Shown here one piece after another: positions 13,039-16,041 of a DNA stretch of 23,772 nt; the first letter of the stretch is position 1; each line of letters starts with the position of its first letter. The position numbers were made by a program, and so were the translations under genes. The stretch comes from a virus (taxonomy: Duplodnaviria; Heunggongvirae; Uroviricota; Caudoviricetes): positions 1 through 23,772 of IMG/VR virus record IMGVR_UViG_3300016484_000447; one strand, written 5' to 3'. The notes under the pieces are model-generated. The model ran no database searches. It was not told where the DNA came from and saw only the letters and a program-made list of their open reading frames with translations.

Positions 13039-13067
13039 AGTGTAGCACAGCTTTCAGCCTTTGTCAA
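13039..13067 (-). promoter_or_regulatory. Leftward sigma70-type promoter
   Basis: TTGACA-N17-TACACT with TGTGC before -10. Confidence 0.8.
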
Positions 13068-13182
13068 GCCCCAGCCGCCCACCGCTTCGCAGTGGTCGGA
13101 TTCTCAAGGCTGAGAACTCTGGCTGACGCCAGGACTGCCACAGTCCTTCACCTGTGCAATGCTCCGCGCCGGTGGGCGCCAG

Positions 13183-13212
13183 TTGACATCTTGGGCTGTC
13201 TGGTGCTACACT
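13183..13212 (+). promoter_or_regulatory. Rightward sigma70-type promoter 1
   Basis: TTGACA-N18-TACACT, GTGC before -10. Confidence 0.75.
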
Positions 13213-13242
13213 CCCAGTTGTGCAAAACTTCTGTCACACCCC

Positions 13243-13272
13243 TTGACAACTTGACGACTGTCGTGCTACAAT
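13243..13272 (+). promoter_or_regulatory. Rightward sigma70-type promoter 2
   Basis: TTGACA-N18-TACAAT, GTGC before -10. Confidence 0.8.
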
Positions 13273-13300
13273 GACGGTCTACGATAATCATGGAGGTAGT

Positions 13301-13657
13301 GTGAGCGATCAAGCTGTCTCCACCCCCTCTGTGGTGGTGGAACTGAAACAGGAGGTTCCGAGCTTCCTGAACGGCGGAATCGACCTGAAGCGTCTGCTCA
13401 AGGACGTTGCAAGGCAGTCGAAGCCAGCAGTCGAGGCTCTTGTCAAGCTGTTGGAGTCCAAGGACGAGAAGGTGCGCCTGACTGCGGCACGGACGCTTCT
13501 GGAGCTTCAAGTGACTGTGGCGAAGGAAATCAACTCCGACGAGGTGAACCGCCTCATCGCGGAGATGAAGCTGCACGGTGCCAGCAAGGCCCTGGTCCCC
13601 GTCGAAGACGAAGACCGCCCCCTGGTGGACTTCACGACAATCCGGGAAGTGAAATAA
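13301..13657 (+). CDS. Probable terminase small subunit (118 aa, GTG start)
   Basis: GGAGG SD before GTG 13301; helical protein, first rightward gene upstream of tRNAs and terL; function assigned by position only. Confidence 0.5.
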   Translation: MSDQAVSTPSVVVELKQEVPSFLNGGIDLKRLLKDVARQSKPAVEALVKLLESKDEKVRLTAARTLLELQVTVAKEINSDEVNRLIAEMKLHGASKALVPVEDEDRPLVDFTTIREVK

Positions 13658-13671
13658 GTTGTAACAGAGCC

Positions 13672-13701
13672 TTGACATCTGCACATACCGTGTGCTACAG
13701 T
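13672..13701 (+). promoter_or_regulatory. Promoter for tRNA-like RNA
   Basis: TTGACA-N18-TACAGT, TGTGC before -10. Confidence 0.75.
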
Positions 13702-13721: not shown

Positions 13722-13810
13722 GGGTGTTTTCCTGCTGCCGGGCTGTAACCCCGGCGTCGTAAAACAGGTAGGCTGGTAGACGAGAGGTTCGAGTCCTTGA
13801 ACACCCACCA
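13722..13810 (+). ncRNA. Non-canonical tRNA(Tyr)-like RNA lacking a D-arm at the normal position (89 nt)
   Basis: Acceptor GGGTGTT/AACACCC + A-CCA; anticodon arm GCCGGG-CTGTAAC-CCCGGC; TTCGAGT T-loop; only 8-9 nt between acceptor and anticodon stems. Confidence 0.75.
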
Positions 13811-13828: not shown

Positions 13829-14017
13829 ATGTTCGGTCTTCTCGAAGACATCGCAAAGGCGGCTGTGGCAGTCGTGACCACGCCGGTTGCAGTGGTGGTC
13901 GATACCGCAGAACTGGTCGGCATCAAGCAAGACAGTGGTCGCTGCCACACAGCCGACACCCTCGGTGCGGTGGTCAAGAACCTCGAAAACGCTGCGAACC
14001 CCACGTCCAGGGGTTGA
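13829..14017 (+). CDS. Small Val/Ala-rich protein (62 aa)
   Basis: AAGGAG SD; stop overlaps next -35. Confidence 0.7.
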   Translation: MFGLLEDIAKAAVAVVTTPVAVVVDTAELVGIKQDSGRCHTADTLGAVVKNLENAANPTSRG

Positions 14018-14129: not shown

Positions 14130-14133
14130 GTCC

Positions 14134-14325
14134 TCATTCGCGTGGGCTTGTAGGTGATAGTGACGAAAGGTGCTTGACTGGTACATCTTGCACTGAGCCA
14201 CCCGTTCGAGTCGGGGAAGAGGCCACTGGCAAGTAGTCACAACGTTCACCGTGACGCACTCAGACGTATTCTGAGCAACGGTAGGTCGTATGTAAGCGTA
14301 GCCTACTACGAGCCCACACGAATGA
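14134..14325 (+). ncRNA. Candidate structured RNA A (192 nt)
   Basis: ~20-bp closing stem 14134-14153/14306-14325; internal T-loop-like hairpin and three further hairpins. Confidence 0.7.
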
Positions 14326-14330
14326 AGATT

Positions 14331-14407
14331 GCCCGGGTGGCGAAATTGGCAGACGCGGACGGTTGAGGGCCGTCTTCTTGCAGGTTCGAGTCCTGCCCTG
14401 GGCACCA
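14331..14407 (+). tRNA. tRNA-Leu(GAG) with short variable loop
   Basis: Cloverleaf, anticodon GAG, 5-nt variable region, CCA. Confidence 0.9.
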
Positions 14408-14652
14408 TGTTCTTTGATAGTCGCTTCGGAATACCGAAAGAGAAACACCGCGAGAGGGGCAGGGGCTAGCACACCTCCCCGAAAGGTGAAAAGTCGGAAT
14501 TCAAAGCAACGGGGACGTTGCTGGCGAAACAGGATCGGAGTTGGCGGAAGGCACCGGGCTGAGTAACCCGGAGAAGCCACCCTTGAACTCTACGACTGAC
14601 GCATTCGCCCGAAGGCAAACGGTAATCCGACCGGAGCGACTTTCAAAGAGCA
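14408..14652 (+). ncRNA. Candidate structured RNA B (245 nt)
   Basis: ~21-bp closing stem 14408-14429/14631-14652; nested helices, GNRA-type loops. Confidence 0.7.
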
Positions 14653-14655
14653 TTT

Positions 14656-14727
14656 GCGGGTTGTCAATGGAGTACGTTTGGCCTTCCAAGCCGAAAGAGG
14701 CAGGTTCGACCCCTGTAGCCCGCTCCA
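14656..14727 (+). tRNA. tRNA-Gly(TCC) with degenerate D-arm
   Basis: GCGGGTT/AGCCCGC acceptor, U73-CCA, TCC anticodon; 72 nt, D-stem barely pairs. Confidence 0.8.
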
Positions 14728-14734
14728 AAGAATT

Positions 14735-15060
14735 TTCGATGTAGCACGGAAGACGCCTGCTAAGGTTGCGGGTAGTCACGGAAGATGCGAAGCACTGCTA
14801 CGGTGCTAGCCCGAAACTACTGAGGATTTGCGGCCCTACTGCACACAGGCCATAAGGTAGAAAAACGAAGTGCCCGCAACGTTATCGAAGGAATACGGAC
14901 GAAAGTGGCCTGAAAAGAACACTAGACGGACTAGCTTCGACATAAAGCGGTAGAGATGCCCGAGCGGTGACAGCGTAAGCTGATAGCGTCGGATCGACAG
15001 GGACAATAACCCGGCAAATCCTGTTCATCTCAGCCAATGACTGTAGGCTATAAAACAGTC
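14735..15060 (+). ncRNA. Candidate structured RNA C (~330 nt) with kissing loop, pseudoknot and repeated ANGGA motifs
   Basis: Helices 14735-40/14884-89, 14765-72/14873-80, 14953-58/15026-31; loop-loop CAGGCCA/TGGCCTG; 3' H-type pseudoknot. Confidence 0.6.
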
Positions 15061-15063
15061 GAT

Positions 15064-15140
15064 GGGTGCGGTAGCTCAACTGGCAGAGCAACGGATTCCA
15101 AATCCGTAGGTTGTAGGTTCGACTCCTACCCCATTCGCCA
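15064..15140 (+). tRNA. tRNA-Trp(CCA) with weak acceptor stem
   Basis: Canonical D, anticodon and T arms; acceptor has 2 G-U pairs, a C-C mismatch and one extra connector base. Confidence 0.8.
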
Positions 15141-15144
15141 GTTC

Positions 15145-15235
15145 TGTCCTGCACGCAGCGCATGTCTCCAAACTAGAGGTTGCCCCGCCTTGAGTGGCCG
15201 GGCAATAGTACAGGCAATGCACGCTGCGGCAGGCA
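15145..15235 (+). ncRNA. Candidate branched hairpin RNA D (~90 nt)
   Basis: CCTGC-ACGCAGCG-CAT pairs with ATG-CA-CGCTGCG-GCAGG; internal TTGCCC/GGGCAA hairpin. Confidence 0.45.
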
Positions 15236-15241
15236 TTTTTT

Positions 15242-15355
15242 AAGCGGTGGCGCAATCTCGTGCCGCTTGCAACTTGCGCCCTAACAGCGGTGCCGTGTAT
15301 CGCGGCCTTGCTAGCTGCGTTGCGGATCAAACGAGATGCGGGAGTGCGGTTGCAC
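15242..15355 (+). ncRNA. Candidate multiply pseudoknotted RNA E (~115 nt)
   Basis: Crossing helices GGCGCAA/TTGCGCC, TCTCGT/ACGAGA, AAGCGGT/GCCGCTT. Confidence 0.5.
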
Positions 15356-15361
15356 CAATGT

Positions 15362-15890: not shown

Positions 15891-15961
15891 GGGCTGTTAT
15901 CTGGGGAGACTCTAGGCTTTGCAAGCCCGGGGGAAGGGTTCGATTCCCTTACGGTCCACCA
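15891..15961 (+). tRNA. tRNA-Ala(TGC) with miniature D-arm (71 nt)
   Basis: G3-U70 alanine identity pair, A73-CCA, TT-TGC-AA loop, D-arm reduced to TCT-GGGG-AGA. Confidence 0.8.
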
Positions 15962-15963
15962 TT

Positions 15964-16041
15964 CAGTGTGTATTGTCAATCTGGTAGACGGCCGGGCCAG
16001 GAACCCGGAGGTTGTAGGTTCGATTCCTGCCGCACTGACCA
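15964..16041 (+). tRNA. tRNA-Pro(AGG) with A34 and C33
   Basis: C1-G72, A73 proline identity; loop CC-AGG-AA; CCA. Confidence 0.85.

What the first reader, a model, noticed from the sequence alone, without database searches (positions are those of the whole stretch)
13722..13810. D-arm-less, possibly pseudoknotted tRNA(Tyr) mimic with its own promoter
Seen: perfect 7-bp acceptor with G1-C72, A73 and CCA (bacterial Tyr-type ends), a 6-bp anticodon stem with GTA, and a TTCGAGT T-loop. Only TTCCTGCT separates acceptor and anticodon arms. A D-loop-like string (AGGCTGGTAGAC) appears after the anticodon arm in a ~30-nt insert. CCTG (13731-34) can pair with CAGG (13765-68) across a TCGT/ACGA helix, giving a pseudoknot that could rebuild the elbow in a rearranged order. 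It has a dedicated promoter (13672-13701). Established: the retron Ec78 PtuAB system destroys tRNA-Tyr, and phage tRNAs can rescue tRNA-targeting defences. Inference: a rearranged tRNA architecture acting as nuclease decoy, TyrRS substrate or sensor bait.
Basis: partly seen in the sequence, partly recalled or inferred. Interest (0 to 1): 0.78.

Follow-up and report, generated by a model that had tools for sequence, protein, structure and literature searches.

The report
Pseudoknotted, non-cloverleaf phage tyrosine tRNA
This phage gene encodes a tyrosine transfer RNA that is not a cloverleaf: half of its D arm has moved into the loop of the variable arm and pairs back across the anticodon arm, a design shared by hundreds of phage and bacterial genes (also in arginine and cysteine versions) that standard tRNA finders miss and for which I found no published description.

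Summary
Relatives show an 8-bp acceptor with a 4-bp T stem. A 6-bp long-range helix (13731-36 with 13767-72) crosses a variable-arm stem (13755-58 with 13779-82), and a displaced D-loop UGG follows it. I collected 242 distinct members from phages (two cultured Pseudomonas phages carry it unannotated), planctomycete tRNA arrays and metagenomes. Both crossing helices covary strongly. ARAGORN calls none of the 242, and Rfam has no family. The scaffold carries three identities: Tyr (A73 in 170/171), Cys (U73) and Arg (A just after the displaced GG in 64/67, the ArgRS determinant A20). Arrays that carry one version mostly lack the ordinary tRNA with that anticodon. Best reading: a working spare tRNA whose D stem is strand-swapped (a non-circular permutation), not a decoy. 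Charging and decoding are inferred, not shown. The promoter is real but also serves the next gene. This scan found the Tyr family before on other DNA (at least five notes). I found no paper describing it.

The parts
13672..13701 (+). Sigma-70-type promoter (TTGACA, 18-nt spacer, TG, TACAGT); would give a 5' leader of about 14 nt and also read the 62-codon gene
   Evidence: conserved in 5 of 6 close relatives that carry the RNA and in one that lacks it
13722..13810 (+). Whole RNA: pseudoknotted 8/4 tRNA-Tyr(GUA), 89 nt
   Evidence: Model R1 scores it 78 bits; members 66-102 bits, best non-member 32 bits; missed by ARAGORN and Rfam
13722..13729 (+). Acceptor stem 5' strand, 8 pairs with 13799-13806 (G1-C72; eighth pair U.G)
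   Evidence: Eighth pair formed in 171 of 171 Tyr members, five pair types; mutual-information z 10.8
13731..13736 (+). 5' strand of the long-range helix P; runs straight into the purine at position 26 and the anticodon stem, as the 3' strand of a D stem would
   Evidence: Pairs with 13767-72; 5 of 6 pairs show changes on both sides; inner pairs formed in 36 of 36 representatives at 75% identity against about 17 when shuffled
13738..13754 (+). Anticodon arm: 5-bp stem, 7-nt loop, GUA at 13745-13747, C38
13755..13758 (+). Variable-arm stem 5' strand, pairs with 13779-13782 and crosses helix P
   Evidence: Middle pair takes U-A, C-G, G-C and A-U and is formed in 171 of 171; compensatory forms found by a model that lacked this stem
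13759..13766 (+). A-rich connecting loop (7-11 nt in Tyr members)
13767..13772 (+). 3' strand of helix P, inside the variable loop; plays the part of the D-stem 5' strand
13773..13778 (+). Displaced D loop: UGG at 13774-13776 (G18-G19 equivalents, inferred to dock on the T loop)
   Evidence: Conserved in all members, partly by search design; the next base is A in 64 of 67 Arg members and 31 of 171 Tyr members
13779..13783 (+). Variable-arm stem 3' strand and one linker A
13784..13798 (+). T arm: 4-bp stem and TTCGAGT loop
13799..13810 (+). Acceptor 3' strand, discriminator A73 (13807) and encoded CCA
   Evidence: A73 in 170 of 171 Tyr members
13829..14017 (+). 62-codon gene of unknown function behind the same promoter (context, not part of the RNA)
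   Evidence: (weak PHROG hits)
13271..13657 (+). Upstream conserved 118-128-aa gene that marks the locus in relatives; ordinary tRNA-Tyr genes sit directly behind it in L025/L026

Best explanation
It is a working spare tRNA-Tyr built on a non-cloverleaf scaffold. SHOWN by comparison: an 8/4 acceptor-T branch of the normal 12 pairs, a normal anticodon arm, and two crossing helices (P and the variable stem). INFERRED, step 1: the chain leaves the acceptor and runs down helix P directly into the anticodon stem, so P stacks where a D stem stacks; its 6 pairs equal the 4 D-stem pairs plus the 8-14 and 15-48 layers, as in tRNA-Sec. Step 2: the partner strand comes out of the variable loop, climbs to the elbow and presents UGG to the T loop, so an L shape forms with the D-domain strands in a different order. 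Step 3: host RNA polymerase transcribes it from the promoter, RNase P and 3' nucleases mature it, host TyrRS charges it (G1-C72, A73, GUA), and EF-Tu delivers it to UAC/UAU codons. Purpose (least certain): to keep Tyr decoding going when the host's tRNA-Tyr pool is depleted or cut during infection or stress, as for other phage and array tRNAs. The altered core may also escape enzymes that read an ordinary D arm.
For: Covariation of both crossing helices. Identity elements follow the anticodon: Tyr A73 170/171 and G1-C72 165/171; array Cys versions U73 4/4 with G2-C71 and C3-G70; Arg versions have A after the displaced GG in 64/67, or 14/14 against 3/36 for Tyr after clustering at 75%; these are the bacterial determinants listed in PMC9976931. 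Reciprocal gap filling in loci with at least 15 tRNAs: with the rearranged Tyr, ordinary Tyr in 12/76 and ordinary Arg(UCU) in 42/76; with the rearranged Arg, ordinary Tyr in 10/17 and ordinary Arg(UCU) in 0/17. The 87.8-kb genome has no other tRNA-Tyr, and relatives carry an ordinary tRNA-Tyr at the same place (L004, L025). 8/4 tRNAs are charged and translate in E. coli (PMC5389517). Array tRNAs of Anabaena are charged under stress (PMC8421152).
Against: Covariation cannot show that the two helices form at the same time; alone they give similar energies (-24.7 and -25.1 kcal/mol). In Arg members the variable stem shrinks to about 2 pairs. The five bacterial genomes checked also have an ordinary tRNA-Tyr elsewhere, and 12 of 76 arrays hold both, so it is not essential there. 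The invariant columns (CC/GG, G-x-C, UGG) were partly imposed by my search patterns. Members are related, so the counts overstate independent events. One relative (L029) has a GCA anticodon with A73.
Confidence: 0.75

Rival explanations
1. Decoy or bait: the RNA folds like a tRNA but is not used in translation; it soaks up a tRNA-Tyr nuclease, or binds TyrRS or a sensor.
For: Strong promoter, often as the first or only tRNA of a phage (L252, L253). It sometimes coexists with an ordinary Tyr. tRNA-Tyr is a known defence target (PMC11555353). Some irregular 8/4 tRNAs are charged but not used in translation (PMC5389517).
Against: A pure decoy need not keep the cognate discriminator or A20, nor replace the ordinary gene anticodon by anticodon. 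It also sits inside bacterial arrays among ordinary tRNAs.
Confidence: 0.12
2. Charged but used off the ribosome or only conditionally; the two helices are alternative folds of a switch rather than one pseudoknot.
For: The two nested half-structures have nearly equal energy. Identity elements show synthetase contact, not ribosome use.
Against: The two helices use different bases and the linkers (7-11 and 4-7 nt) allow both. The 12-pair branch and 7-nt anticodon loop needed by EF-Tu and the ribosome are kept.
Confidence: 0.08
3. The gene is scrambled, but the transcript is cut and rejoined into an ordinary cloverleaf, as for circularly permuted tRNA genes.
For: Permuted tRNA genes that are restored by processing exist (PMC10085705). 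Relatives of this phage encode an RNA ligase.
Against: This order is not circular; repair would need an internal segment moved. I saw no conserved cut motifs, and the family occurs in many bacterial arrays with no such gene examined.
Confidence: 0.03
4. Decayed tRNA pseudogene with a chance insert.
For: Not called by ARAGORN or Rfam; folding z -1.2. Planctomycete clusters have been called degenerate (PMC4807772).
Against: 242 distinct members with compensatory changes in every helix.
Confidence: 0.02

Closest known systems
Bacterial and phage class II tRNA-Tyr(GUA) (Rfam RF00005), e.g. Otagovirus PPSC2 tRNA-Tyr (L001)
   Same: G1-C72, A73, GUA loop, a short stem right after the anticodon arm; the T-arm and acceptor end match PPSC2 at 96% over 26 nt; same genomic slot as ordinary Tyr genes of relatives
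   Different: No D hairpin; 8/4 instead of 7/5; the variable loop is about 20 nt and carries the D-stem strand and D loop; pseudoknot
(8/4) allo-tRNAs and (8/4) tRNA-Ser/His/Cys/Sec of bacteria and phages (Mukai et al., PMC5389517)
   Same: 8-bp acceptor plus 4-bp T stem; 6-bp D-type helix; found in phage tRNA clusters; weak tRNA-Sec model match for a planctomycete member (28.4 bits, cut-off 47)
   Different: Those keep a local D hairpin and are cloverleaves; the text names no Tyr version and no pseudoknot. Their 'E-loop' tRNA1 could not be inspected (figures not held).
Non-circular permutations of hammerhead ribozymes (Eckert et al., PMC10085705)
   Same: Conserved elements in a new 5'-to-3' order, producing pseudoknots while (by inference here) keeping the 3D positions
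   Different: Described only for a ribozyme; the passages I read mention for tRNA only circular gene permutations that processing undoes
Long tRNA arrays (L-arrays; Anabaena trn operon, PMC8421152) and planctomycete 'degenerate tRNA clusters' (PMC4807772)
   Same: Most bacterial members examined lie inside such arrays; Tyr and Cys were reported among the rarest array isotypes (PMC4758250), which missed genes may partly explain
   Different: The Anabaena operon has an ordinary Tyr and no member; neither paper mentions this gene
D-armless mitochondrial tRNAs, plant-virus tRNA-like structures, bacterial YrlA RNAs (own knowledge; TLS also PMC9976931)
   Same: tRNA function or mimicry without an ordinary cloverleaf; TLS use pseudoknots
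   Different: Mitochondrial forms simply lose the arm; TLS pseudoknots build the acceptor arm; YrlA has no free CCA end. Here the D domain is kept but rewired.

Membership tests
Canonical cloverleaf tRNA (RF00005) | Local D hairpin between acceptor and anticodon arms | tested here: not met
   Only 8 nt lie there and they pair at long range; ARAGORN 0/242; no Rfam hit at 13722-13810
Canonical cloverleaf tRNA (RF00005) | 7-bp acceptor plus 5-bp T stem | tested here: not met
   8/4; eighth pair covaries
Canonical cloverleaf tRNA (RF00005) | 5-bp anticodon stem, 7-nt loop with U33 and R37, T loop, discriminator and CCA | tested here: met
Bacterial tRNA-Tyr identity | G1-C72, A73, G34, U35 | tested here: met
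   Window and 165-170 of 171 members; determinants from PMC9976931
Bacterial tRNA-Tyr identity | Tyrosylation by TyrRS and decoding on the ribosome | not testable with these tools
   Needs experiment
(8/4) allo-tRNA | 8-bp acceptor and 4-bp T stem | tested here: met
(8/4) allo-tRNA | Long D stem closed by a tetraloop as a local hairpin | tested here: not met
   The helix is 6 bp but encloses the anticodon arm and crosses the variable stem
(8/4) allo-tRNA | Ser or Ala identity (G73/U73 with a long variable arm, or G3.U70) | tested here: not met
   A73, G3-C70 and a GUA anticodon in the window
tRNA-Sec (RF01852) | UCA anticodon, G73, 13-bp branch, model score of at least 47 bits | tested here: not met
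   28.4 bits for a planctomycete member; none for the window
Non-circular RNA permutation | Conserved elements in a changed order that is not circular | tested here: met
   Order: acceptor 5', D-stem strand, anticodon arm, V 5', D-stem strand plus GG(A20), V 3', T arm
Non-circular RNA permutation | Same 3D positions and function as the parent RNA | not testable with these tools
   Indirect only: A20 follows the moved GG in Arg versions
tRNA pseudogene | Loss of pairing and of conservation | tested here: not met
   94.7% of cells paired, 18 of 26 pairs with double changes

The most novel reading that the evidence does not exclude
A widespread class of ribosome-competent tRNAs in phages and bacteria has a pseudoknotted, non-circularly permuted core. 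The scaffold is portable across at least three amino acids (Tyr, Cys, Arg), host synthetases read the relocated D loop, and it is kept because enzymes that attack ordinary tRNAs recognise it poorly.
Probability: 0.45. Interest if true: 0.93.

Novelty: new variant of a known kind. Interest (0 to 1): 0.85.

Why it matters
Outside mitochondria the cloverleaf is treated as universal, and tRNA finders rely on it. A common bacterial and phage tRNA that reaches the L shape with a different chain order would show that the translation machinery reads shape, not topology. It would extend natural non-circular permutation from a ribozyme to tRNA. It would also mean that Tyr, Arg(UCU) and some Cys genes are missing from annotations of phages and tRNA arrays. 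It is directly testable: two cultured Pseudomonas phages and cultured planctomycetes carry it, and an 89-nt transcript can be charged and probed in vitro. It may also be a new scaffold for engineered tRNAs.

Tried and rejected
Single-sequence folding was uninformative. BLASTN of the window element against cultured phages gave only T-arm matches, and an exact 28-nt pattern found nothing. My idea that it is the only tRNA-Tyr of planctomycetes was rejected: all five genomes checked have an ordinary Tyr elsewhere, and only 7 of 151 sampled genomes of the phylum matched, one of them a damaged copy. The Anabaena trn operon has no member, so its charging data do not apply directly. No full-length match was found in PLSDB plasmids with one query. 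KVP40 pseudo-tRNAs are not members. One search used miscounted columns and is superseded. Ten literature searches found no description. Gaps in that check: the Pope et al. cluster M paper was not held. The supplements of PMC5389517 and PMC10690425 were not held, so I could not inspect Fremin's candidates DNAVirus_1423 (Tyr), _215 (Cys) and _2961 (Arg), which only sometimes overlap ARAGORN calls and might be automatic captures of this family.

Full report
Setting. The window is the first 23.8 kb of an 87.8-kb uncultured phage. PhoH and ClpP-like genes lie on the minus strand; a tRNA cluster, large terminase, portal, protease and major head protein follow on the plus strand. The closest cultured terminases are only about 41% identical (PAK_P1-like Pseudomonas phages). 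ARAGORN tRNAs, none for Tyr, in the window and in the whole genome. Rfam has no hit at 13722-13810 up to E = 1.

Observation. The ends, anticodon loop, T loop, missing D hairpin and promoter are as described. The sequence does not fold better than shuffles (z -1.2), so I looked for homologues through the conserved upstream gene. Six distinct close relatives carry the same RNA at the same place. Two other relatives (L004, L025/L026) carry an ordinary tRNA-Tyr there, and one (L005) has promoter and downstream gene but no tRNA. The shifted registers hold in all seven: 13731-36 with 13767-72 (at least 5 pairs, one U-A to C-G double change) and 13755-58 with 13779-82.

A large family. Architecture patterns found members in many unrelated viral contigs, including contigs of 170-460 kb. 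They gave 89 hits in bacterial genomes, nearly all Planctomycetota, mostly inside long tRNA arrays, and further members in metagenomes. Two cultured Pseudomonas phages, Rembedalsseter (PQ464593) and SCYZ1 (MH518298), carry it unannotated behind a near-consensus promoter just before the small terminase. A covariance model separates members (66-102 bits) from other tRNAs (at most 32 bits). A descriptor that did not require either crossing helix recovered 242 distinct members: 171 GUA, 67 UCU/UCG and 4 GCA. ARAGORN at default settings calls none.

Structure. On a plain MAFFT alignment of 65 members, 94.7% of cells pair and 18 of 26 pairs have changes on both sides; sliding the partners drops pairing to 42-59%. 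Structure-free mutual information ranks only real helix pairs in the top 16. These include five pairs of the long-range helix P and an eighth acceptor pair, so the branch is 8/4. The variable stem looked invariant because my first pattern fixed it. Members found without that constraint show U-A, C-G, G-C and A-U at its middle pair, paired in 171 of 171. After clustering at 75% identity, P pairs 3-5, the V middle pair and the eighth acceptor pair are each formed in 36 of 36 representatives, against 15-21 on shuffling. Since P opens before and closes inside the variable stem, the two helices cross. That they form at the same time is inferred: they use different bases and have linkers of 7-11 and 4-7 nt.

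How the fold likely works (inference). In an ordinary tRNA, strand 22-25 runs into position 26 and the anticodon stem, while strand 10-13 climbs to the D loop, whose G18-G19 dock on the T loop. Here the strand after the acceptor runs straight into a purine and the anticodon stem, so it takes the role of 22-25. Its partner, coming from the variable loop, ends in UGG and so takes the role of 10-13 plus the D loop. Six pairs equal the four D-stem pairs plus the two tertiary layers they replace, as in tRNA-Sec (own knowledge). The best test available here is the Arg subfamily. Bacterial ArgRS reads A20, the base after G18-G19 in the D loop (PMC9976931). The base after the displaced GG is A in 64 of 67 Arg members but 31 of 171 Tyr members; at 75% clustering it is 14/14 against 3/36. 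The moved segment therefore behaves as the D loop in the eyes of a synthetase.

Function. Tyr members have A73 in 170 of 171 and G1-C72 in 165. The four array Cys members have U73, G2-C71 and C3-G70. Arg members use A, G, U or C at position 73. In loci with at least 15 ordinary tRNAs, those with the rearranged Tyr have an ordinary Tyr in 12 of 76 and an ordinary Arg(UCU) in 42 of 76. Those with the rearranged Arg have an ordinary Tyr in 10 of 17 and an ordinary Arg(UCU) in 0 of 17 (loci are partial and related, so the p-values of 6e-4 and 1e-5 are optimistic). This anticodon-by-anticodon replacement, and the swap with ordinary Tyr genes at this very locus, point to a working tRNA. 8/4 tRNAs are known to be processed, charged and delivered by EF-Tu in E. 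coli (PMC5389517). The phage uses UAC for about 89% of Tyr codons in its long open frames, which GUA reads directly. Why this scaffold is kept is open. Supplying tRNA-Tyr from a strong promoter is enough to beat retron-Eco7 (PMC11555353). The anticodon loop is ordinary apart from C38, which ordinary Otagovirus Tyr genes share. The fold would therefore protect only against enzymes that read the D arm or elbow. I put working tRNA at 0.75 and decoy only at 0.12.

Comparison and novelty. It works like a class II tRNA-Tyr but fails the cloverleaf tests. It shares the 8/4 branch with allo-tRNAs but not their D hairpin or identity. It fits the idea of non-circular permutation, reported for hammerhead ribozymes (PMC10085705). 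Ten searches of the held literature found no description. The library is incomplete, and I could not inspect the supplements of Mukai 2017 (E-loop tRNA1) or Fremin 2023 (candidates overlapping Tyr, Cys and Arg calls), so an earlier automatic capture is possible. After I had reached this reading, the scan's own index showed the same Tyr family noted on at least five other genomes. Those are AI notes and not independent proof. The excerpts shown did not mention the Arg subfamily with its A20 or the reciprocal gap filling. Verdict: real, conserved, a new structural variant of tRNA; interest 0.85.

Noticed in passing
L364-L483 (e.g. L383:500-587 -, L406:589-674 -); L268, L270, L275, L291, L303, L334, L345: Arg(UCU/UCG) subfamily on the same scaffold, abundant in metagenomic tRNA arrays and in phages, with A after the displaced GG, a variable stem of about 2 pairs and often a G.U first pair with U73.
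   Followed up: yes
L151:1054-1142, L163:1199-1287, L179:995-1083, L207:4788-4876: Cys(GCA) version with U73 in the same planctomycete arrays as the Tyr version, 260-430 bases away; no ordinary Cys in those loci.
   Followed up: partly
L029:704-792; L027:754-850: One close relative has a GCA anticodon on the Tyr body with A73 (point mutant or mis-decoder); another has a tandem duplication of 8 nt after the acceptor strand.
   Followed up: no
window 14655-14727: tRNA-Gly(UCC)-like gene with a short D arm, missed by ARAGORN, 26.6 bits in Rfam (below the cut-off).
   Followed up: no
window 15891-15961, 14331-14407, 15964-16041, 15064-15140: Other odd tRNAs: Ala(UGC) with a very short D arm (also in L003, L023, L027), Leu(GAG) without a long variable arm, Pro with A34 (AGG), Trp with three acceptor mismatches.
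   Followed up: no
window 14130-15360: Long spacers between the tRNAs with hairpins and an isolated T-loop-like element (about 14200-14215), conserved in L023; no Rfam hit. Earlier notes of this scan cover them.
   Followed up: no
window 13039-13272: Three near-consensus sigma-70 promoters (one on the minus strand, two on the plus strand) in the divergent region before the 128-codon gene.
   Followed up: no
L004:2390-2482; L025:4366-4458: The ordinary tRNA-Tyr at the same locus in relatives is itself long (93 nt), with an enlarged D region and a long variable arm.
   Followed up: no
L264:1908-1993; L266:1262-1346: Other irregular tRNA-like genes with an apparent 8/4 branch next to members in planctomycete genomes (about 30 bits with my model).
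   Followed up: no
L213, L214, L155, L176, L166, L101: Members with no ARAGORN tRNA in the fetched flanks: stand-alone copies outside arrays.
   Followed up: partly
L254:380-626 (Vibrio phage KVP40): The annotated pseudo-tRNAs 4 and 5 look like intact tRNA bodies with large inserts in place of the anticodon loop.
   Followed up: no
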